Virus record (IMG/VR): IMGVR_UViG_3300033402_000018
Direction: 5' to 3' (one strand)
Source: a virus
DNA length: 55,764 nucleotides
The notes below the pieces were generated by a model. It made no database searches. It worked only from the letters and a program-made list of their open reading frames with translations, and was not told where the DNA came from. A program made the position numbers and the translations under genes. This document shows positions 2,827 through 37,768 of the stretch, one piece after another. How positions within the stretch are numbered: position 1 is the stretch's first letter; each line of letters opens with the position of its first letter.

Positions 2827-3384
2827 ATGAAAATCAAAGACTTAAAGCTACACGCTTTCTGGAAACGGTTTTTCCGCCGCCTTAGTAGGGGATTGGGCGT
2901 GCCGAAGAAGATTGCAGCGACAGAGGTAAAAGCACCGGGAAAATACGAAGCTGGTAAGCGGTACACCATCTTTCTCGCCGGAGCCATCGACCAAGGTAAA
3001 GCGGTGGACTGGCAGCAGAAAGTCGCCCGCGCTCTGGACGAACTGGACATTCTGATCCTGAATCCGCGCAGAGAGAATTGGGACCCAAGCTGGGATCAAT
3101 CCGCAGACAATCCTGAATTCAGGCAGCAGGTAAATTGGGAACTTGACGCACAGGCGGCCGCTGATATGGTGATTTTCGTGTTCACCAAGGACAGCAAGGC
3201 ACCGATCACGTTCTTGGAATTCGGTCTGTTCGCCCCAACCAAAGACGCCGTGGTCTGCGCTGAAGAAGGCTTCTACCGCAAGGGAAATCTTGACATCGTA
3301 GCTGAGCGCTACCACATTCCAATGTATGACAATTTGGATGAGATGATCGGTGACTTGAAGACGGTGCTTGGGGAGAAAGCATGA
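2827..3384 (+). CDS. nucleoside 2-deoxyribosyltransferase-like protein
   Basis: N-terminal YTIFLAGAIDQG Rossmann-like motif typical of the NDT/RCL family; 185 aa. Confidence 0.45.
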   Translation: MKIKDLKLHAFWKRFFRRLSRGLGVPKKIAATEVKAPGKYEAGKRYTIFLAGAIDQGKAVDWQQKVARALDELDILILNPRRENWDPSWDQSADNPEFRQQVNWELDAQAAADMVIFVFTKDSKAPITFLEFGLFAPTKDAVVCAEEGFYRKGNLDIVAERYHIPMYDNLDEMIGDLKTVLGEKA

Positions 3385-3716
3385 GCCAGACAGTTTACGT
3401 GCTAACGACCTTGATGGGGGAAAACCCGAAGCTGCCGAAAGAGTGGCGTCCTGTTGGCGTGGTAACAAGCCTCGACATCGCTGAGCAATGGGTCGCGCAC
3501 GGCGGGAACAACGATTGGATTCCGTTTGAGATTGACGATACCAGTTTGACCGGATTAAGCGACAACCCTTCAGTGTTTAAGCCCGCGCCGCCTACGCCGA
3601 ACGAAGAGAAGCTGGAAAAGGCCAACCAGCAATTGCAAGGCGTGATTCAGACGCTTCAGAAGCGACTCGAAAAGAAAAAGCCAAAGGCTTCCCTTTTGAA
3701 CAAGAAACGGAGATAA
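3381..3716 (+). CDS. hypothetical protein
   Basis: ORF of 111 aa with ATGA overlap; basic C-terminus. Confidence 0.4.
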   Translation: MSQTVYVLTTLMGENPKLPKEWRPVGVVTSLDIAEQWVAHGGNNDWIPFEIDDTSLTGLSDNPSVFKPAPPTPNEEKLEKANQQLQGVIQTLQKRLEKKKPKASLLNKKRR

Positions 3717-5116: not shown

Positions 5117-5503
5117 ATGTACAAAAGACCCGAAAGAAAGCATAAACCGAACACAGAAAAGTGCCCGTTCTGCGACAAAGATTTCAAACCAATTGATCCG
5201 TGGCGCGAATCACAATGCGTGCTCAACAAGCCGCTCTGGATGGTGATCCCACCCGGCGGCGTCCATCTCGAATGCCCGGTTCACCCCGAGGGACATCATG
5301 TCTTCGGCAGCCCGGTCATCTACATGGATTCTCCTATCCGTGTTCGTGAGAACAACTTACCTGACCCGTTAAACGCGCCGTGGTGCGAGTACGACCGCAC
5401 GAAGTATTCAGGCGGCTGCACCTACGATCACGATTCCAGCAAGGATTTGACGTTCGATTCCACCAAACCCTTCGGAACCACGACAGGCTCGAATTGGCGG
5501 TAA
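5117..5503 (+). CDS. hypothetical protein
   Basis: 128 aa ORF, Cys/His-containing N-terminus (CPFCDK). Confidence 0.4.
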   Translation: MYKRPERKHKPNTEKCPFCDKDFKPIDPWRESQCVLNKPLWMVIPPGGVHLECPVHPEGHHVFGSPVIYMDSPIRVRENNLPDPLNAPWCEYDRTKYSGGCTYDHDSSKDLTFDSTKPFGTTTGSNWR

Positions 5504-5524
5504 TCTAGGAAAATTTGGTATTAG

Positions 5525-6106
5525 GTGGGCATGAGTCAATATGATCGTGTCTACCTAGACCAATGCTACGCACTCGCCAAGAACAGCACATGTGTGAAGG
5601 CCAAAGTTGGCGCTCAAGTGCGCGGACCCTACGGCGACATGTCTGACCACCTGCTAGGTCAAGGTTTTAACCAATCCCCCAATCCTGAGTTTGCTGACTG
5701 CGGCAAGCTGTGCGCCGGGGGCATCCGCTGCGGCATTAAGTCCGGTACTCGCGCTGAACTCTGTTACGCCGTCCACGCGGAGCAATACGCACTACTTCAG
5801 GCCGGATCGCTCGCGAAAGGGGCCACGATCTATGTCGCTTCCTACGATGACAAAGGCGAGAAACGCCTGAAGAACGCTGAACTCCCGCTGGGGCACCCGA
5901 TGCACGGTTTCTACTGTTCGGTGTGTGCTAGGCTCATCTGGGCTGCGGGAATCGCACGTGTAGTGACGGACGGTGTAAAGGGCCCGGTTGTTCTCAGCCT
6001 GAATGACATCTGGAAGACCTCTTACGGCGTGGCGGACAGTATTGACAAGAAGTACAAATCCTGCGGTTGCGAAGTAGGCAATTGCATCTGTGATATTGAG
6101 ACCTAA
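5525..6106 (+). CDS. cytidine/deoxycytidylate deaminase-fold zinc-binding protein
   Basis: CYAVHAEQYALLQAG (H-A-E zinc/catalytic motif) and downstream YCSVCARLI (PCxxC motif). Confidence 0.55.
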   Translation: MGMSQYDRVYLDQCYALAKNSTCVKAKVGAQVRGPYGDMSDHLLGQGFNQSPNPEFADCGKLCAGGIRCGIKSGTRAELCYAVHAEQYALLQAGSLAKGATIYVASYDDKGEKRLKNAELPLGHPMHGFYCSVCARLIWAAGIARVVTDGVKGPVVLSLNDIWKTSYGVADSIDKKYKSCGCEVGNCICDIET

Positions 6107-6639
6107 TGTCAAACCTCGCTGAACTCAAAGACCTGCCCAAAGAGCGGAAGAAGTATGTCGTTGGCTTCTTGATTGATCCCACGTTGTCTAAGGTGGTGCT
6201 CGTGCGTAAGAACCGACCTGACTATCAACGCGGTCTGCTCAACGGCGTGGGCGGGAAAGTCGGAGACACGATCCTAGACGAAACCACGGAAGAGGCGATG
6301 GCCCGTGAGTTCCAAGAAGAGACGGGTGGGGTTGATCTCAACTGGCGGCGGTTCTTGCACATGATGACACCCCGGTCAGACCTGACATTTTTCTACGCCA
6401 TCGGCAATGTTCACTGTGTCCGAACACAGACCGACGAAGAAGTAGCGGTGTATGACATTTCCGATGTGATGGATCGCTGCGATACGATGCCCAATGTTCG
6501 CTGGTGCATTCAGATGGCACGCTCTATTGAGTTCGGTGAGCACGCGGATTACTTTGAAGTGGCTGAGATTTTGGAGACAGACTTACCAGCGAATTTTCAT
6601 TTCATCCCGGATGCAGCGCTTGAAAAAGAAGACCTATGA
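6106..6639 (+). CDS. NUDIX hydrolase
   Basis: Nudix box GGKVGDTILDETTEEAMAREFQEETG (GX5EX7REUXEEXGU). Confidence 0.8.
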   Translation: MSNLAELKDLPKERKKYVVGFLIDPTLSKVVLVRKNRPDYQRGLLNGVGGKVGDTILDETTEEAMAREFQEETGGVDLNWRRFLHMMTPRSDLTFFYAIGNVHCVRTQTDEEVAVYDISDVMDRCDTMPNVRWCIQMARSIEFGEHADYFEVAEILETDLPANFHFIPDAALEKEDL

Positions 6640-7574
6640 ACATTGAATCGAAACTGATACTTGCCAGCAAGAGCGAAGCAACAGGCATCACCCTTTACAC
6701 GTTTGTGCTCACGTACCCACGTGTCATCCTAGCTGAAGTAAACACGCATCGAATGCTCAGCCGCAACACCGCGTCATCTCGCGCTATTCCAGCCAAGAAA
6801 CAGCGGGAACGCGTGCTTACTGATCCGTTCGTGCCTGTCACAATTGGGGCGAATCAGAAAGGGATGCAGGCTGGTGAAGAGCTTGACGGCTGGCGTCGGT
6901 TTGTTGCGATCAACACGTGGAAACTTGCACGCTACCCAATGGTAGCGGCGTCGTGGGTACTCGACAAGGTTGGTGCGCACAAGCAAGTTGTGAACCGCAT
7001 TGTGGAGCCGTGGACGTTCACGCAGCAAGTTGTGACTTGCACCGACCTGAAGAATGTCTTCAAACTGCGCAACCACAAAGATGCAGAGCCACACTTTCAA
7101 ATCATCGCGAAACAGATGCAGATGCAAGCAGAGTGGGCCGAGAAATGGTTTAACACCCTTTCGTGGAACTCGGAGAACGCGCTTGACCGTAGATTAGAAA
7201 TCAACAACCAACTTGGTGTTGGTACTCTTCAGGTGCTAAAGCCGGGGGAGTGGCACATGCCGTTTGTTGATGAGAAGGACATCACAGACACAATCCTGAA
7301 CTCCATGCTGCATGACAGCACTGACGAATCCCTGAAGAAAATCAGCACAGCACGCTGCGCACGTGTCAGCTACTTTCTACCGGAGAGCGGCAAAAGGTCT
7401 GACCCTAAGCGTGACGTAGAGCTTTGCAATAAACTGTCCGGCTCCGGTCATTGGAGTCCGTTCGAGCACGTAGCCACGCCGACAAAAGAAGCGGATTACA
7501 TTGGCAATTTTAAGGGCTGGAAGCAGTATCGTAAAGAGTATCCGCAAGAGTCTGGAGGGGACCGTGGGAATTGA
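6636..7574 (+). CDS. thyX: flavin-dependent thymidylate synthase ThyX-like
   Basis: HRMLSRNTASSRA matches the ThyX RHRxxSxxxxSxR signature; size 312 aa. Confidence 0.6.
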   Translation: MNIESKLILASKSEATGITLYTFVLTYPRVILAEVNTHRMLSRNTASSRAIPAKKQRERVLTDPFVPVTIGANQKGMQAGEELDGWRRFVAINTWKLARYPMVAASWVLDKVGAHKQVVNRIVEPWTFTQQVVTCTDLKNVFKLRNHKDAEPHFQIIAKQMQMQAEWAEKWFNTLSWNSENALDRRLEINNQLGVGTLQVLKPGEWHMPFVDEKDITDTILNSMLHDSTDESLKKISTARCARVSYFLPESGKRSDPKRDVELCNKLSGSGHWSPFEHVATPTKEADYIGNFKGWKQYRKEYPQESGGDRGN

Positions 7575-7608: not shown

Positions 7609-8094
7609 ATGGAGAAACGCCTTGCGAAGCAGCGCGAGTGGGACATCTACTACCTGAACATGGCCCGTTACGTCTCCACGAAGTCGAAGGACCCAAGCAC
7701 GCAAACCGGAGCGTGCATCGTGCGCCCGGACAACTCTTTGTGTTCCATTGGCTTCAACGGCTTCCCCAAAGGCATGAATGACGCCCCGGAGCTTTACGCC
7801 AACCGTGATGTAAAGTATTCTCGCACAGTGCATTGCGAAGTCAATGCCGAAATCTTCACCAGAGAAGACCTGAAGGGGTTTACGCTTTACACGTGGCCTT
7901 TCTCATCTTGCGACCGTTGCGCGGTGACGATGATTCAGGCGGGAATTGCACGTTTTGTGTTTCCAACCATGCCGCCAGAGAAGGCGTCCCGTTGGGCTGA
8001 AAACATGGCGATAGCGCAAGGCTACATGCGGGAAGCTGGGCGGGAAGTGGTTGAGATACCGTATGAACAGATTCCCAAGGTTGTGCTAGAATAA
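7609..8094 (+). CDS. dCMP deaminase (ComEB-like)
   Basis: HCEVNAE and SCDRCAVTMIQAGI motifs (HAE / PCxxC); start placed at first ATG after upstream stop (alternative GTG ~7563). Confidence 0.7.
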   Translation: MEKRLAKQREWDIYYLNMARYVSTKSKDPSTQTGACIVRPDNSLCSIGFNGFPKGMNDAPELYANRDVKYSRTVHCEVNAEIFTREDLKGFTLYTWPFSSCDRCAVTMIQAGIARFVFPTMPPEKASRWAENMAIAQGYMREAGREVVEIPYEQIPKVVLE

Positions 8095-12351: not shown

Positions 12352-13185
12352 ATGGCGAACAAACCCAGAACCGACTCGCTGGGTGACAGAATGAAGCGCT
12401 ACGAAGCAACCACGCGCTTCCTGTTGCCGCGCCGCACTTACACAATTCTTCGCGTTGATGGTCGTGCGTTCCACACGTGGACTCGCGGGCTTGACCGTCC
12501 CTATGACCGCAACTTCATGGCGTGCATGAACGAAGCCGCGCTCGAACTTTGCCAGCAGATCGCGGGAGCGCAGTTCGCTTACGTGCAGTCCGACGAAATC
12601 AGCCTGTTGGCTGTGGACTTCCTTGACATCAAAACCGAGCCGTGGTTTGAAGGCGGCGTGCAGAAATGGGCCAGCGTCGGCGCATCCATCGCAACGATGG
12701 CGTTCAACAATTGCTTGCTTCGGCTGAAGGGGGCAAACCTCGACGAGTCTGAGCTTAAGATCACCAAGAAGCTCCCGAACGCCACGTTCGACGCCCGCGT
12801 GTTCACCATCCCAGACTTGGTGGAAGTGGAAAATTATTTCGTGTGGCGGCAGCAGGATGCGGAACGCAACTCCGTCACAATGCTGGCGCAGAGCTACGCT
12901 TCCCACAAGCAACTCATGGGGAAAAATCGCGCCGCGCAGCATGAGATCATCCACAAAGCCGGGGACAATTGGGCGAAGCATCCTGTGCGTTTCAAGCATG
13001 GCGCTGTGATCCGCCGTGCCGCTGAAAACGAAGTCTGGACGGAAGTCGGCACCCATCATTTCAACTGGGTTGTGGACGAAGACACCCCAGCCTTCACCAA
13101 AGACCGCGCTTACATCCGTGGTCTGGTTCCTGTTGTTTGGGACAACGACCTTCTGGTCAGAAAGGCGGCAGCGAATGGAGAATAG
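12352..13185 (+). CDS. tRNA(His) guanylyltransferase Thg1-like protein (TLP)
   Basis: DRMKRYE, TILRVDGRAFHTWTRGL, FAYVQSDEISLL match the conserved Thg1 N-terminal palm-domain motifs. Confidence 0.7.
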   Translation: MANKPRTDSLGDRMKRYEATTRFLLPRRTYTILRVDGRAFHTWTRGLDRPYDRNFMACMNEAALELCQQIAGAQFAYVQSDEISLLAVDFLDIKTEPWFEGGVQKWASVGASIATMAFNNCLLRLKGANLDESELKITKKLPNATFDARVFTIPDLVEVENYFVWRQQDAERNSVTMLAQSYASHKQLMGKNRAAQHEIIHKAGDNWAKHPVRFKHGAVIRRAAENEVWTEVGTHHFNWVVDEDTPAFTKDRAYIRGLVPVVWDNDLLVRKAAANGE

Positions 13186-35455: not shown

Positions 35456-35485
35456 TGGACAAATTTTCGAAATTCGCAGTATACT
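35456..35485 (+). promoter_or_regulatory. sigma70-like promoter TGGACA-N18-TATACT upstream of tRNA cluster
   Basis: -35 TGGACA and -10 TATACT spaced 18 nt; GTATACT motif recurs upstream of other genes. Confidence 0.4.
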
Positions 35486-35593
35486 AATAGAGAACAGCAT
35501 GAACCGCATATCCTCATTATCGTCATCTAGTAGCTCCACCGGGGCGGGGGTCGGCGTGTATGCGTAAATAAGCGCAAGGAAACACGAAACGAC

Positions 35594-35621
35594 AGCCGCC
35601 AAGATTGGCGGCTTTTTTATT
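35594..35621 (+). terminator. intrinsic terminator
   Basis: GCCGCC-AAGATT-GGCGGC hairpin followed by TTTTTTATTT. Confidence 0.6.
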
Positions 35622-35638
35622 TGCAATCAGCGATATAC

Positions 35639-35728
35639 GGTGAGTTGGGAGAGTGGTTGATTCCGCTGGTTTGCTAAACCAGAGCACCCGAAAGGGTGCC
35701 ACAGGTTCGAATCCTGTACTCACCGCCA
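35639..35728 (+). tRNA. tRNA-Ser (anticodon GCU)
   Basis: Manual fold: acceptor GGTGAGT/ACTCACC, 3-bp D stem, anticodon stem CTGGT/ACCAG with loop TTGCTAA, long variable hairpin, T arm ACAGG-TTCGAAT-CCTGT, discriminator G, encoded CCA. Confidence 0.75.
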
Positions 35729-35729
35729 T

Positions 35730-35815
35730 GGTAGGTTTGGGCATTGGAAGGCCCACCTGTCTCGAAAACAGGCGACCGAAAGGTCGTAGGAGTTCGACTC
35801 TCCTACCTACCGCCA
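35730..35815 (+). tRNA. tRNA-Ser (anticodon CGA)
   Basis: Acceptor GGTAGGT/ACCTACC, anticodon stem CCTGT/ACAGG with loop CTCGAAA, long variable arm, T arm GGAGTTCGACTCTCC, G discriminator, CCA. Confidence 0.7.
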
Positions 35816-36032
35816 AATTTTAAGCTGGGCGGTGTATGGCACGGATACTTCTCGAAAAAGTAAAAACCCGTGACCGCGATGTTCCCCGGCAAAGTGTAAG
35901 TTCGCAGCGGTGTTGGATACAGTTACTTCGGTTGACTCTCTCAGGGAAACCTGAATGAGGAATAGACTTGGTTCGATCCCAAGCGACCAGCCGTAAGGCT
36001 GGTGTCAACTGTACCGTTTGTTCCCTGCGATT

Positions 36033-36122
36033 GGTGAGTTGGGGGAGTGGTTTAACCCACTTCGTTGGAAGCGAAGCGCACCCGAAAGGGTGCCGTGAGT
36101 TCGAATCTCACACTCACCGCCA
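36033..36122 (+). tRNA. tRNA-Ser (anticodon GGA)
   Basis: Acceptor GGTGAGT/ACTCACC, anticodon stem CTTCG/CGAAG with loop TTGGAAG, long variable hairpin CGCACCCGAAAGGGTGC, T arm GTGAG-TTCGAAT-CTCAC, G discriminator, CCA. Confidence 0.75.
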
Positions 36123-36127
36123 AGTTT

Positions 36128-36213
36128 GGAGAGGTCGGCATTGGCACGCCAAGCGGTCTTGAAAACCGTGATACCGCAAGGTATTGGGAGTTCGATTCTC
36201 CCCTTCTCCGCCA
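36128..36213 (+). tRNA. tRNA-Ser (anticodon UGA)
   Basis: Acceptor GGAGAGG/CTTCTCC (one G-U), anticodon stem GCGGT/ACCGT with loop CTTGAAA, long variable hairpin GATACCGCAAGGTAT, T arm GGGAG-TTCGATT-CTCCC, G discriminator, CCA. Confidence 0.7.
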
Positions 36214-36233
36214 AATTTGCGGCTGTTAAATTT

Positions 36234-36311
36234 GCGGTTGTGGCGAAATAGGCAGAGCGGGGGCCTTAAAAGCCCTGTCATTTGCGGGTTCGAGTCCCGC
36301 CAACCGCACCA
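36234..36311 (+). tRNA. tRNA, anticodon UAA (Leu-type anticodon) with atypical short variable region
   Basis: Acceptor GCGGTTG/CAACCGC, anticodon stem GGGGC/GCCCT with loop CTTAAAA, T arm GCGGG-TTCGAGT-CCCGC, A discriminator, CCA; D stem weak and variable region 7 nt, not type II. Confidence 0.45.
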
Positions 36312-36669
36312 AATTTCCGGTTCTTGCTACGATATGTTGGTGTAAGCGCGTGACAATTCGGGCAAAGCAACCGCAGGTTGTCGAGCTTGTTATTTTTGCG
36401 GTCGCCGTCCCGGTGGTCTAGCTCAAGAGGAATTGGAGAGTAACGACGAAAGCGCAGAGATGGCATACTATCTAATACTAAGTTTTTAGCTCTGCCAAGT
36501 ATGGGGGATAGCACTGACTGTGCGGCTGGGCCTTATAAACCCGGAGTAGCTCCTGATTAGAGTAGACGGCGTGGGTTTGATTCCCCGATCCCCTACCATC
36601 CGCAGTATTAAATTTCAGGTCTGGATCAAGCGTCCTAGACGGACCTCGAAAATGTCCCGGTGACGCCAT
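36278..36669 (-). pseudogene. HNH homing endonuclease, apparently fragmented (two reading frames), antisense within the tRNA cluster
   Basis: Minus-strand ORF 36278..36514 encodes LELDHRDGDRKNNKLDNLRLLCPNCHALT (HNH motif); an adjacent upstream ORF 36478..36669 is in a different frame. Confidence 0.5.
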
Positions 36670-37265: not shown

Positions 37266-37533
37266 ACGCACGTGCGGCGTCAGGATTTACAAATGCGGCC
37301 CCGGCTGTAGGCCGCATAGCCCGACAGGTGACACTGGTGAAAAATGCAGGATCGGCTGTTTTAAGCCAGCGCGGTTCCTGAACCCCAACTTCGGGGTTGA
37401 TTCAGACGATGATGTCTTTGACCACTGGTGGAAGTACGAGTATAATTATGCTGAATACCTGTGCGCCGAACATTACGACGAAGTGATGCGGGACAAGAGC
37501 GAAAATGAAGAAGCTGATGATGCTGGTTCGTAA
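37252..37533 (+). CDS. hypothetical protein
   Basis: 93 aa ORF. Confidence 0.4.
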   Translation: MMRTERTCGVRIYKCGPGCRPHSPTGDTGEKCRIGCFKPARFLNPNFGVDSDDDVFDHWWKYEYNYAEYLCAEHYDEVMRDKSENEEADDAGS

Positions 37534-37768
37534 GAACCTGAAGATGACCGAGAACAAGATTGGTGCGCAGTGCGCCCACGCCGCGCTCGGTCTGTACAAG
37601 AAAGACCCGCAGGAGCACTGGAAGTGTGTCGTGCTGGACGCCTCGGACAACAAGTTTAATCAGGCGAAGCTGGCACACCCGGAAGCCTACGTTGTTACGG
37701 ACGCCGGATACACGCAGGTGGAGGCCGGGAGCGAGACTGTCATGGCGTGGTGGGAGGAAGATGTATGA
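37505..37768 (+). CDS. peptidyl-tRNA hydrolase PTH2-like
   Basis: MMLVRKNLKMTENKIGAQCAHAALG and DAGYTQVEAGSETVMA match PTH2 family conserved blocks; short (87 aa). Confidence 0.55.
   Translation: MKKLMMLVRKNLKMTENKIGAQCAHAALGLYKKDPQEHWKCVVLDASDNKFNQAKLAHPEAYVVTDAGYTQVEAGSETVMAWWEEDV

What the first reader, a model, noticed from the sequence alone, without database searches (positions are those of the whole stretch)
35825..35991. tRNA-like element with canonical acceptor/T-arm but a ~100-nt insertion at the anticodon loop
The 3-prime part has a textbook T arm (CTTGG-TTCGATC-CCAAG) followed by CGACCAG. This pairs (6/7) with CTGGGCG about 165 nt upstream. The 5-prime part also forms a D arm (GTAT-GGCACGG-ATAC) and an anticodon-stem half (TTCTC, pairing with GAGGA just before the variable region). 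About 100 nt between the two halves contains a GNRA hairpin (CAGG-GAAA-CCTG). This could be an intron-containing tRNA (too short for a typical group I intron), a split or permuted tRNA, or a tRNA-derived regulatory RNA.
Basis: seen in the sequence. Interest (0 to 1): 0.55.

Follow-up and report, generated by a model that had tools for sequence, protein, structure and literature searches.

The report
Two phage Y RNAs among tRNAs
The supposed "tRNA with a 100-nt insertion" is really two neighbouring small RNA genes of the Y RNA family (partners of the Ro60 RNA-quality-control protein). They sit inside a serine/leucine tRNA operon of an uncultivated huge phage, an unusual location for a known kind of RNA.

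Summary
ARAGORN (with introns and in tmRNA mode) and Rfam find nothing in 35816-36032.

Seven diverged relatives carry a conserved RNA in the same slot, always 3-4 nt upstream of tRNA-Ser(GGA). It corresponds to window 35901-36030 only. The proposed 5' half is absent from them. CGACCAG pairs locally in a covarying GNRA hairpin, not with CTGGGCG.

Covariance models built from these elements hit 105 sites. Outside the tRNA clusters they lie next to Ro60/TROVE genes, on the same strand, in 27 of 27 viral loci and in Caulobacter phage CcrColossus. Several overlap sub-threshold Rfam YrlA matches. Covariation is strong: 22 of 28 pairs compensatory.

The 5' half (35824-35890) is itself a minimal family member (32 bits). 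It is 83% identical to a copy just downstream of a phage Ro60 gene that co-occurs with this phage in four samples.

Verdict: two tandem Y RNAs.
- Y-a is a hairpin type.
- Y-b has a T-arm module.

They differ from canonical YrlA in having no CGAA motif, no D-arm and no Ro gene within the window. I class this as a new variant of a known kind.

In passing, the operon is preceded by a conserved Ser/Leu-codon leader-peptide attenuator.

The parts
35456..35485 (+). sigma-70-like promoter candidate of the operon (TGGACA-18-TATACT)
   Evidence: Consensus scan, 10/12 matches. Relatives have TTGACA-17-TATTGT at the equivalent place. Consensus match only; not shown to be functional.
35499..35567 (+). leader ORF MNRISSLSSSSSSTGAGVGVYA*. 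Its run ATA TCC TCA TTA TCG TCA TCT AGT AGC TCC holds all six Ser codons plus Leu TTA, the codons read by the five tRNAs downstream.
   Evidence: Read from the sequence. Conserved in 8 of 9 lineages.
35594..35619 (+). intrinsic terminator (AGCCGCCA-AGAT-TGGCGGCT + T-run) of the attenuator. Its 5' arm can pair instead with GGGGCGG just after the Ser codons, forming an antiterminator.
   Evidence: Terminator scan. Alternative folds of -27.9 versus -31.6 kcal/mol, with the antiterminator partner covarying (GGCUGG:CCAGCC in relatives).
35639..35728 (+). tRNA-Ser(GCU)
   Evidence: ARAGORN; Rfam tRNA 59.2 bits.
35730..35815 (+). tRNA-Ser(CGA), CCA encoded
   Evidence: ARAGORN; Rfam tRNA 45.2 bits.
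35824..35890 (+). Y-a, a minimal hairpin-type Y RNA (YrlB-like). Layout: P1 GCUGG[GC]GG / CCCCGGC; internal loop UGUA / GCGAUGUU; P2 GGCACGG / CCGUG(A)CC; AUACUUCU motif and A-rich apical loop.
   Evidence: R2 hit 35821-35892, 32.3 bits, E 4.9e-6 in a 251 kb search, and not part of the seed. R1 17.1 bits. 83% identical over 65 nt to the Y RNA just downstream of the Ro60 gene in L059 11749-11812.
35901..36030 (+). Y-b, a 130-nt Y RNA with a tRNA-like module. Helices:
- P1: 35902-35907 and 35909-35910 with 36023-36030 (bulged C35908)
- U-rich internal loop: 35911-35914 / 36016-36022
- P2: 35915-35924 with 36007-36015
- conserved ACUUC(U)GG: 35925-35931
- P3 hairpin: 35938-35959
- P4 T-arm mimic: 35967-35983
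- P5 GNRA hairpin: 35986-36003
   Evidence: R1 150.8 bits and R2 69.5 bits, E 2.4e-16. RNAalifold predicts the same helices independently. Covariation. The single-sequence MFE reproduces all helices, z = -4.0.
36033..36122 (+). tRNA-Ser(GGA). Its 5' end lies 2-4 nt after the 3' end of Y-b in all eight lineages that carry the element.
   Evidence: ARAGORN and Rfam; flanks.
36128..36213 (+). tRNA-Ser(UGA)
   Evidence: ARAGORN.
36234..36311 (+). tRNA-Leu(UAA)
   Evidence: ARAGORN and Rfam.

Best explanation
The interval holds two adjacent genes for Y RNAs, the small non-coding partners of the ring-shaped Ro60/Rsr (TROVE) protein. They are embedded in a tRNA operon of an uncultivated huge phage.

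Y-a (35824-35890) is a minimal long hairpin. Y-b (35901-36030) has the same closing domain: a lower stem, a single bulged pyrimidine, an invariant GG:CC pair, an asymmetric U-rich internal loop, a second stem and a conserved UACUUCU strand. Y-b also carries a module of three hairpins, one of which is a perfect T-arm mimic.

Shown:
- the structure, by covariation
- the family link to RNAs that flank Ro60 genes in many phages
- the position between tRNA-Ser(CGA) and tRNA-Ser(GGA) on the same strand, with no promoter-like or terminator-like site of its own

Inferred:
- Both RNAs are transcribed with the five tRNAs from the promoter and attenuator upstream.
- They are released by tRNA processing. 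RNase P cutting at 36033 would make the 3' end of Y-b.
- They are bound through the closing domain by a phage Ro60. The likely candidate is P0121, encoded elsewhere in the same roughly 460-kb genome, next to three paralogous Y RNAs and a PNKP / RNA ligase 1 / CCA-adding tRNA-repair module.
- As in Deinococcus, Salmonella and Thermus phage phiLo, the Y RNA would gate the Ro ring and tether it to an effector (for example PNPase, or a tRNA-binding enzyme recognising the T-arm module). This would serve RNA quality control or repair during infection.
For: 1. The same slot in seven diverged relatives holds a conserved RNA. Its 5' end (UUCGCAGCGGUGUU) and 3' end (GUUCCCUGCG) are 100% identical and its interior varies, although neighbouring proteins are only about 50% identical.
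2. RNAalifold on five sequences gives P1, P2, P4 and P5.
3. Model R1, built only from tRNA-cluster copies, finds same-strand matches beside TROVE genes in many IMG/VR loci.
4. In the 32-sequence alignment, 22 of 28 pairs show compensatory change. 90.5% of cells are paired against 38-45% when partners are slid, and 0 of 500 shuffles reach the observed values.
5. Model R2 gives 105 hits. All lie on the Ro strand or the tRNA-cluster strand. All 27 Ro loci searched have hits, 83 upstream and 13 downstream of Ro. The whole 55.7-kb window has exactly two hits, Y-b and Y-a.
6. R2 hits enclose Rfam YrlA sub-threshold hits in L029, L030, L031, L033, L038, L040, L044 and L045, and in cultured phage CcrColossus.
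7. The Ro locus L059 carries Y-A and Y-B upstream and Y-C downstream of a TROVE+vWA protein (Pfam 1.6e-14; PDB phiLo Ro60 4e-30). Y-A shares the exact P1 5' strand with window Y-b. Y-C is 83% identical to window Y-a.
8. That Ro protein occurs in four samples that also hold the window sequence. Tetranucleotide correlation with the window is 0.915, within the window's own range of 0.90-0.95.
9. The published pattern fits. [quoted passage not shown]
10. The window encodes other tRNA-repair genes: Thg1-like, PTH2 and RlaP.
Against: - No Ro60 gene lies in the 55.7-kb window (tblastn). The published criterion for Y RNAs is within 4 kb of Ro.
- That the Ro contig belongs to the same genome is inferred, not shown. 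A second Ro-bearing huge contig (894 kb) is present in the same samples.
- Rfam YrlA gives no match here even at E<=10.
- The GNCGAAN0-1G / CGAA motif, shown to matter for phiLo Ro60 binding, reads GGUGUUG in Y-b and GGUGUAUG in Y-a.
- The canonical YrlA D-arm is absent.
- No expression or binding data exist.
- One near-identical copy (L001) has an uncompensated SNP in P1, C35903A.
Confidence: 0.78

Rival explanations
1. One reading: a single tRNA gene interrupted by a roughly 100-nt intron or insertion at the anticodon loop, or a split or permuted tRNA. CTGGGCG (35825) would pair with CGACCAG (35984) as the acceptor stem.
For: The quoted strings exist. The T-arm is canonical, with G53:C61 closure and a UUCGAUC loop. 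The element lies in a tRNA cluster.
Against: - ARAGORN with introns up to 300 nt and a lowered threshold finds nothing, and tmRNA mode finds nothing.
- Rfam tRNA, group I and group II intron models give no hit at E<=10.
- The 5' half is absent in seven orthologous loci, while the T-arm and the following hairpin are kept.
- CGACCAG pairs within P5, which covaries C-G / A-U / U-A.
- The interval's fold is no better than shuffles.
- The 5' half independently scores as a Y RNA.
Confidence: 0.02
2. A structured spacer of the tRNA precursor. It descends from Y RNAs but now works without Ro, for example as a processing or stability element for tRNA-Ser(GGA), whose 5' end it always abuts.
For: There is strict linkage 2-4 nt upstream of tRNA-Ser(GGA) in eight lineages, even where gene order differs (L013). 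No Ro gene lies in the window. The related 465-kb contig's Ro was not seen among the top Ro hits.
Against: The part under strongest purifying selection is exactly the closing domain shared with Ro-adjacent copies: a bulged pyrimidine, GG:CC and the U-rich loop. It is 100% identical between lineages whose proteins are about 50% identical. L009 has the same tRNA-Ser(GGA) without the element, so the tRNA does not need it.
Confidence: 0.1
3. A tRNA-like decoy or sponge, independent of Ro, for host tRNA-targeting defence nucleases or for tRNA-modifying enzymes. It would be produced together with replacement tRNAs.
For: There is a perfect T-arm mimic. It sits in an operon of replacement tRNAs and near tRNA-repair genes. 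Phage tRNAs are proposed to counter anticodon nucleases (PMC7824862).
Against: The minimal forms (Y-a, L013, and 41 of the 105 family members) have no tRNA-like part at all yet keep the closing domain. There is no anticodon-arm mimic conserved across relatives.
Confidence: 0.07
4. A DNA-level element, such as a target or remnant of the homing endonucleases (HNH, PD-(D/E)XK) that invade these tRNA clusters, rather than an RNA.
For: HNH-like or PDDEXK ORFs are inserted in the cluster in L008, L013 and L009. The termini are very well conserved.
Against: Compensatory base-pair changes in four helices indicate selection on a folded single strand. All 105 hits are strand-specific relative to Ro. The element is present whether or not an endonuclease ORF is.
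Confidence: 0.02

Closest known systems
YrlA / YrlB Y RNAs of bacteria and phages (Rfam RF02553; Chen et al. 2014, PMC4201824)
   Same: - Length of 80-130 nt.
- The 5' and 3' ends form a long stem, interrupted by an asymmetric internal loop, that carries the Ro-binding motif region.
- A variable module containing a T-arm mimic followed by a GNRA-type hairpin.
- At least two Y RNAs per genome, one tRNA-like and one plain hairpin.
- The same strand as, and (for the paralogues) directly beside, a TROVE gene.
- My closing-domain model encloses Rfam YrlA sub-threshold hits.
   Different: - No Rfam YrlA match.
- The motif GNCGAAN0-1G reads GGUGUUG or GGUGUAUG.
- There is no D-arm (GUAGCUCA...GGUAGAGC).
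- An extra hairpin (P3) precedes the T-arm.
- These two copies lie in a tRNA operon more than 19 kb from any Ro gene.
Deinococcus radiodurans Yrn1 / Yrn2
   Same: [quoted passage not shown] That is a precedent for co-transcription and co-processing of Y RNAs with tRNAs. It is also a pair of one tRNA-like and one hairpin Y RNA.
   Different: There the locus is next to rsr and holds a single tRNA. Here two Y RNAs sit between four tRNA-Ser genes and a tRNA-Leu, behind a leader-peptide attenuator.
Thermus phage phiLo Ro60 with Yrl1 / Yrl2 (PMC12135203; PDB 9KOP, 9L5Y)
   Same: A phage-encoded Ro60 is the closest solved relative of P0121 (E 4e-30). It binds two phage-encoded Y-like RNAs located upstream of its gene and assembles with host PNPase. 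This is the best experimental model for how the present RNAs would work.
   Different: phiLo Yrls were defined by the CGAA motif, and each CGAA base contributes 3-4-fold to affinity. That motif is not kept here. No tRNA-operon location is reported there.
Metazoan Y RNAs (hY1, hY3-5; Xenopus Ro-Y RNA structure)
   Same: From memory (Green et al. 1998; Stein et al. 2005), as a lead only. The Ro site is a terminal helix with a single bulged C followed by 2-3 base pairs and then an internal loop. That is the same layout as CGCAG[C]GG / CCCUGCG plus loop here.
   Different: The sequence differs (GGUCCGA against GCAGCGGUG). Metazoan Y RNAs are separate RNA polymerase III genes and have no tRNA-like module.
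Phage T4 stable RNAs species 1 and 2 (rnaC, rnaD) in the T4 tRNA cluster
   Same: From memory only: small stable RNAs of unknown function, encoded among phage tRNA genes and released by tRNA processing enzymes.
   Different: This is an analogy of location only.

Membership tests
Y RNA (bacterial/phage YrlA-YrlB group) | 5' and 3' ends pair into a long stem with an asymmetric internal loop, the Ro-binding domain | tested here: met
   P1, the loop and P2 are supported by RNAalifold and by covariation in 32 sequences. The same domain is found in RNAs flanking Ro genes.
Y RNA (bacterial/phage YrlA-YrlB group) | Homology to RNAs encoded beside Ro60/TROVE genes, on the same strand | tested here: met
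   R2 hits occur in 27/27 Ro loci plus CcrColossus, all on the Ro strand. Window Y-b scores 69.5 bits and Y-a 32.3 bits.
Y RNA (bacterial/phage YrlA-YrlB group) | Gene lies within about 4 kb of the Ro60 gene (criterion of Chen et al. 2014) | tested here: not met
   No TROVE-like ORF in the 55.7-kb window (tblastn). Paralogues Y-A, Y-B and Y-C do flank Ro in L059.
Y RNA (bacterial/phage YrlA-YrlB group) | GNCGAAN0-1G / CGAA motif near the 5' end | tested here: not met
   The position reads GGUGUUG (Y-b) and GGUGUAUG (Y-a). Ro-adjacent family members show a YGWW continuum that includes true GGCGAAG (alignment; counts).
Y RNA (bacterial/phage YrlA-YrlB group) | Score at or above the Rfam YrlA (RF02553) gathering threshold of 69 bits | tested here: not met
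   No YrlA hit at E<=10 in 35550-36450. Ro-adjacent phage RNAs also reach only 30-51 bits.
Y RNA (bacterial/phage YrlA-YrlB group) | tRNA-like module with both T-arm and D-arm mimics (YrlA type) | tested here: inconclusive
   The T-arm mimic is present and covaries. There is no D-arm string. Conserved GG in UUCUGG or the P3 loop might substitute, but this is untested.
Y RNA (bacterial/phage YrlA-YrlB group) | Physical binding to Ro60 and Ro-dependent accumulation | not testable with these tools
   Needs RIP or EMSA and Northern blots.
tRNA (including intron-containing or split tRNA) | Cloverleaf recognised by tRNA detectors and covariance models, allowing an anticodon-loop intron | tested here: not met
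   ARAGORN default, -i0,300 and lowered threshold find none in 35816-36032. Rfam tRNA finds none at E<=10.
tRNA (including intron-containing or split tRNA) | Acceptor-stem pairing of the two halves conserved in homologues | tested here: not met
   The 5' half is absent in seven orthologous loci. The 3' strand is used in P5.
tmRNA (standard or permuted) | tRNA-like domain plus tag reading frame, recognised by ARAGORN or Rfam | tested here: not met
   ARAGORN -m finds none. Rfam tmRNA and tmRNA_permuted give no hit on the element.
Group I / II intron | Match to intron covariance models | tested here: not met
   No Rfam hit at E<=10. The 'insert' is about 100 nt.

The most novel reading that the evidence does not exclude
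The whole unit would be a phage-encoded circuit that senses tRNA shortage. The unit comprises a promoter, a leader peptide carrying all six Ser codons plus Leu UUA, a terminator/antiterminator switch, four tRNA-Ser genes, a tRNA-Leu(UAA) gene and two Y RNAs.

When host class-II tRNAs (Ser, Leu) are depleted or cleaved by a defence nuclease, ribosomes stall in the leader. Transcription then reads through, and the phage makes replacement tRNAs and, at the same time, the Y RNAs that arm Ro60-based RNA surveillance or repair. This would be a ribosome-mediated attenuator controlling tRNA and non-coding RNA genes rather than biosynthetic enzymes, and it would tie Y RNA expression directly to tRNA damage.
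Probability: 0.3. Interest if true: 0.75.

Novelty: new variant of a known kind. Interest (0 to 1): 0.5.

Why it matters
Y RNAs and Ro60 are conserved from bacteria to humans, yet their bacterial and phage functions are poorly understood. Known prokaryotic Y RNAs were found only by looking within 4 kb of Ro genes and by the CGAA motif.

This locus shows three things:
- A divergent subfamily lacks CGAA and the D-arm and escapes the Rfam model.
- Y RNA genes can sit far from Ro, inside tRNA operons, where they would be released by tRNA processing.
- A short closing-domain model recovers arrays of up to eight tandem Y RNAs beside Ro genes in many phages, including cultured CcrColossus.

Their position behind a Ser/Leu-codon attenuator, and near tRNA-repair genes, gives a testable link between tRNA damage and Ro-Y RNA function in phage-host conflict. 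The practical lesson is that tRNA-like fragments in phage tRNA clusters may be Y RNA modules rather than odd tRNAs.

Tried and rejected
- Intron-containing or split tRNA, and tmRNA: rejected.
- Self-cleaving ribozymes, group I/II introns and any other Rfam family: no hit at E<=10.
- Exact-pattern search for the T-arm plus CGACCAG in IMG/VR: nothing.
- Close relatives of the SprT-like neighbour in IMG/VR: nothing.
- INPHARED phages hold no close relative of the window. Only tRNA matches were found, with proteins at about 30-45% identity.
- The core pattern is absent from 185,579 reference bacterial and archaeal genomes.
- L022 was a chance pattern match: 13.7 bits with R1 and no R2 hit.
- I tried to place the window and a Ro gene on one contig. 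A protein from the window's end is not on the 332-kb Ro contig. P0151 turned out to be a different 894-kb Ro-bearing element in the same samples. The link therefore remains inferential.
- I considered that the RNA might partner the MVP/vault-like protein of the window (50013-52460). The only phage records with that protein (LR756500, LR756501, LR756503) have no Ro hit. The first 50 kb of LR756500, which includes its MVP-like gene, has no tRNA or Y RNA. There is no support for this idea.
- The MAFFT alignment of all 11 variants (A2) was structurally wrong in the interior and was not used.
- Burroughs & Aravind 2016 (PMC5062991) could not be read.

Full report
OBSERVATION. The window is an uncultivated huge-phage-like sequence with about 53% GC and almost all genes on the + strand. 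It encodes an NAD-dependent ligase, Thg1-like, ThyX, PTH2 and RlaP proteins. Positions 35639-36311 hold five class-II tRNA genes: Ser(GCU), Ser(CGA), Ser(GGA), Ser(UGA) and Leu(UAA). The finding occupies most of the 217-nt gap between Ser(CGA) and Ser(GGA).

No tool recognises a tRNA, tmRNA, intron or any Rfam family in 35816-36032. This holds at E<=10 and with intron-tolerant ARAGORN. The interval 35825-35991 folds no better than shuffled sequence (z = +0.43). A 6/7 match to a 7-mer within 200 nt is expected about 0.27 times by chance (my arithmetic).

RELATIVES. Near-identical copies occur in several peat and soil metagenomes (L001-L007). Protein neighbours led to syntenic relatives at about 50% amino-acid identity (L008 on a 465-kb contig, L009, L010). 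Pattern scans added L013, L015, L018, L019 and L020.

In eight lineages an element sits 2-4 nt upstream of tRNA-Ser(GGA). It starts UUCGCAGCGGUGUU...AGUUACUUC and ends GUUCCCUGCG. This is true even in L013, where the tRNA order differs. L009 lacks the element. It corresponds to window 35901-36030.

STRUCTURE. The helices are:
- P1: CGCAG[C]GG / CCCUGCG.
- A U-rich asymmetric loop: UGUU / GUUUGUU.
- P2: 7-9 bp, with U-A / C-G / A-U exchanges.
- A conserved single strand: UACUUC(U)GG.
- One to three hairpins: P3 (variable), P4 (a 5-bp stem with a UUCGAWC loop, i.e. a T-arm mimic with four different stem sequences) and P5 (ACCAGnC-GNAA-GnCUGGU, with C-G / A-U / U-A exchanges).

RNAalifold finds P1, P2, P4 and P5 without guidance. 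The MFE fold of the window copy alone does so too (z = -4.0).

WHAT IT IS. A looser pattern found two tandem copies of the same kind of RNA immediately upstream of a 479-aa protein (L021, L023). That protein is a TROVE + vWA (Ro60/Rsr) protein: Pfam TROVE 1.6e-14, and PDB hit to Thermus phage phiLo Ro60 at 4e-30.

Covariance model R1 was built only from five tRNA-cluster copies. It then hit same-strand sites beside Ro genes in many unrelated IMG/VR contigs. In the 32 aligned matches, 22 of 28 pairs show compensatory change. 90.5% of cells are paired against 38-45% with slid partners, and 0 of 500 shuffles reach the observed values.

Model R2, the 76-position closing domain, gives 105 hits:
- Every one of the 27 Ro loci searched has hits, all on the Ro strand, 83 upstream and 13 downstream of Ro.
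- Up to eight tandem copies occur per locus.
- The cultured Caulobacter phage CcrColossus has eight tandem hits in the unannotated 1.2 kb before its Ro gene.
- R2 hits enclose sub-threshold Rfam YrlA matches in nine loci. The closing domain is therefore shared with canonical YrlA RNAs.

In the whole window R2 finds exactly two sites. One is Y-b (69.5 bits). The other is 35821-35892 (32.3 bits, E 4.9e-6), which was not in the seed. It has its own P1 (GCUGG[GC]GG / CCCCGGC), loop (UGUA / GCGAUGUU), P2 and AUACUUCU motif.

Y-a is 83% identical to the copy just downstream of the Ro gene in L059. A tRNA-like Y RNA paired with a plain hairpin Y RNA is the pattern reported for Salmonella, Mycobacterium and Deinococcus. 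Deinococcus Yrn2 is co-transcribed with a tRNA (PMC4201824).

SAME GENOME? No Ro gene lies in the window. The following points favour one genome of about 460 kb:
- The Ro protein P0121 occurs in four samples that also hold the window sequence.
- The Ro locus has the window's tetranucleotide signature: r = 0.915, against 0.90-0.95 for the window's own 10-kb segments.
- Its Y-A shares the exact P1 5' strand with window Y-b, whereas the Y-A of another Ro-bearing 894-kb element in the same samples does not.
- 332,300 + 128,007 bp comes close to the related contigs of 462-465 kb.

This is an inference, not a demonstration.

The Ro locus also carries peptide deformylase, a PNKP-like kinase-phosphatase, T4-type RNA ligase 1 and a CCA-adding enzyme. 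That is a tRNA-repair neighbourhood, as discussed for jumbo phages (PMC7824862).

MECHANISM. Shown: the fold, the family, the strand, and the lack of any promoter-like or terminator-like site between 35620 and 36330 on the + strand.

Inferred:
- co-transcription with the tRNAs;
- release by RNase P (3' end of Y-b at 36032) and by the 3'-processing of tRNA-Ser(CGA);
- binding of the closing domain by Ro60;
- tethering of Ro60 to an effector through the variable module, by analogy with the Ro-Y RNA-PNPase complexes of Deinococcus, Salmonella and phage phiLo (PMC4201824, PMC12135203).

DIFFERENCES FROM KNOWN Y RNAs. There is no Rfam YrlA hit. CGAA is replaced by UGUU or UGUA, while the family shows a YGWW continuum that includes true GGCGAAG. 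There is no D-arm. An extra hairpin lies before the T-arm. The location is in a tRNA operon more than 19 kb from any Ro gene. I therefore class it as a new variant of a known kind, not a new kind.

IN PASSING. The operon is preceded by three elements:
- a promoter-like site;
- a 22-codon ORF whose run ATA TCC TCA TTA TCG TCA TCT AGT AGC TCC contains all six Ser codons and Leu TTA, exactly the codons read by the five tRNAs;
- an intrinsic terminator whose 5' arm can pair instead with the G-rich segment just after the Ser run.

The ORF and terminator are conserved in 8 of 9 lineages, and the antiterminator partners covary. This looks like a classical leader-peptide attenuator controlling tRNA and Y RNA genes. 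A full-text search found no description of such a case. It is the basis of the 'novel case' above.

Noticed in passing
window 35456-35620: A leader-peptide attenuator lies in front of the tRNA/Y RNA operon. It has a promoter-like site, the ORF MNRISSLSSSSSSTGAGVGVYA* with all six Ser codons plus Leu TTA (matching the five downstream tRNAs), and a terminator with an alternative antiterminator pairing. It is conserved in 8 of 9 lineages. A literature search found no such case for tRNA genes.
   Followed up: partly
window 50013-52460 (+): An 815-aa protein has a Major Vault Protein shoulder domain (3.3e-26) and a vault repeat. Among 50,697 phage records, homologues occur only in three huge uncultured phages, LR756500, LR756501 and LR756503, at 41-44% identity. 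It is followed by an RlaP nucleotidyltransferase at 52726-53562. No link to Ro or Y RNA was found.
   Followed up: partly
window 12352-13185 (+), 37505-37768 (+), 6636-7574 (+): A Thg1-like 3'-5' polymerase (1.9e-26) and a PTH2 peptidyl-tRNA hydrolase add to a tRNA-repair or ribosome-rescue theme in the window. A ThyX-like protein is also encoded.
   Followed up: no
L043, L045, L047 (IMG/VR) and L065 = Caulobacter phage CcrColossus NC_019406.1 108.5-109.7 kb: Tandem arrays of 7-8 Y RNA-like genes lie directly upstream of phage Ro60 genes. The region is unannotated in CcrColossus, apart from two predicted terminators and the tRNA-Gln described in the next item.
   Followed up: partly
L065 3173-3240 (CcrColossus 109217-109284): The annotated 'tRNA-Gln' lies inside a Y RNA model hit (3166-3335) and next to a YrlA sub-threshold hit. 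It gets no Rfam tRNA match at E<=0.01. It may be the tRNA-like module of a Y RNA rather than a tRNA.
   Followed up: no
L008 ~7872-7965, L009 ~5473-5570, L010 ~3535-3630: After tRNA-Leu(UAA) the relatives carry an uncalled tRNA-like sequence: GCAGGGC...CUGAGACUUAUAGACUCGG...GGGAUUCGAUUUCC...GCCCUGUACCA. It has an apparently oversized anticodon loop and a long extra arm. It is absent from the window.
   Followed up: no
L008 6958-7375, L013 655-1103, L009 4733-5107: HNH-like (L008, L013) or PD-(D/E)XK (L009) ORFs are inserted between tRNA genes of the cluster in some relatives. They look like free-standing homing endonucleases. L009, which has the PDDEXK ORF abutting tRNA-Ser(GGA), is the one lineage without the Y RNA.
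   Followed up: no
window 35639-35815 versus 36033-36213: The tRNA pairs Ser(GCU)+Ser(CGA) and Ser(GGA)+Ser(UGA) are 73% identical tandem duplicates of a two-tRNA unit. Several assemblies break at or near this cluster (L003, L004, L005).
   Followed up: no
L062 (JGI 3300035696 Ga0374055_0000025, 894,233 bp): A second Ro60-bearing contig of 894 kb, with its own two upstream Y RNAs, is present in the same samples. At that size it is either an exceptionally large phage-like element or a misassembly.
   Followed up: no
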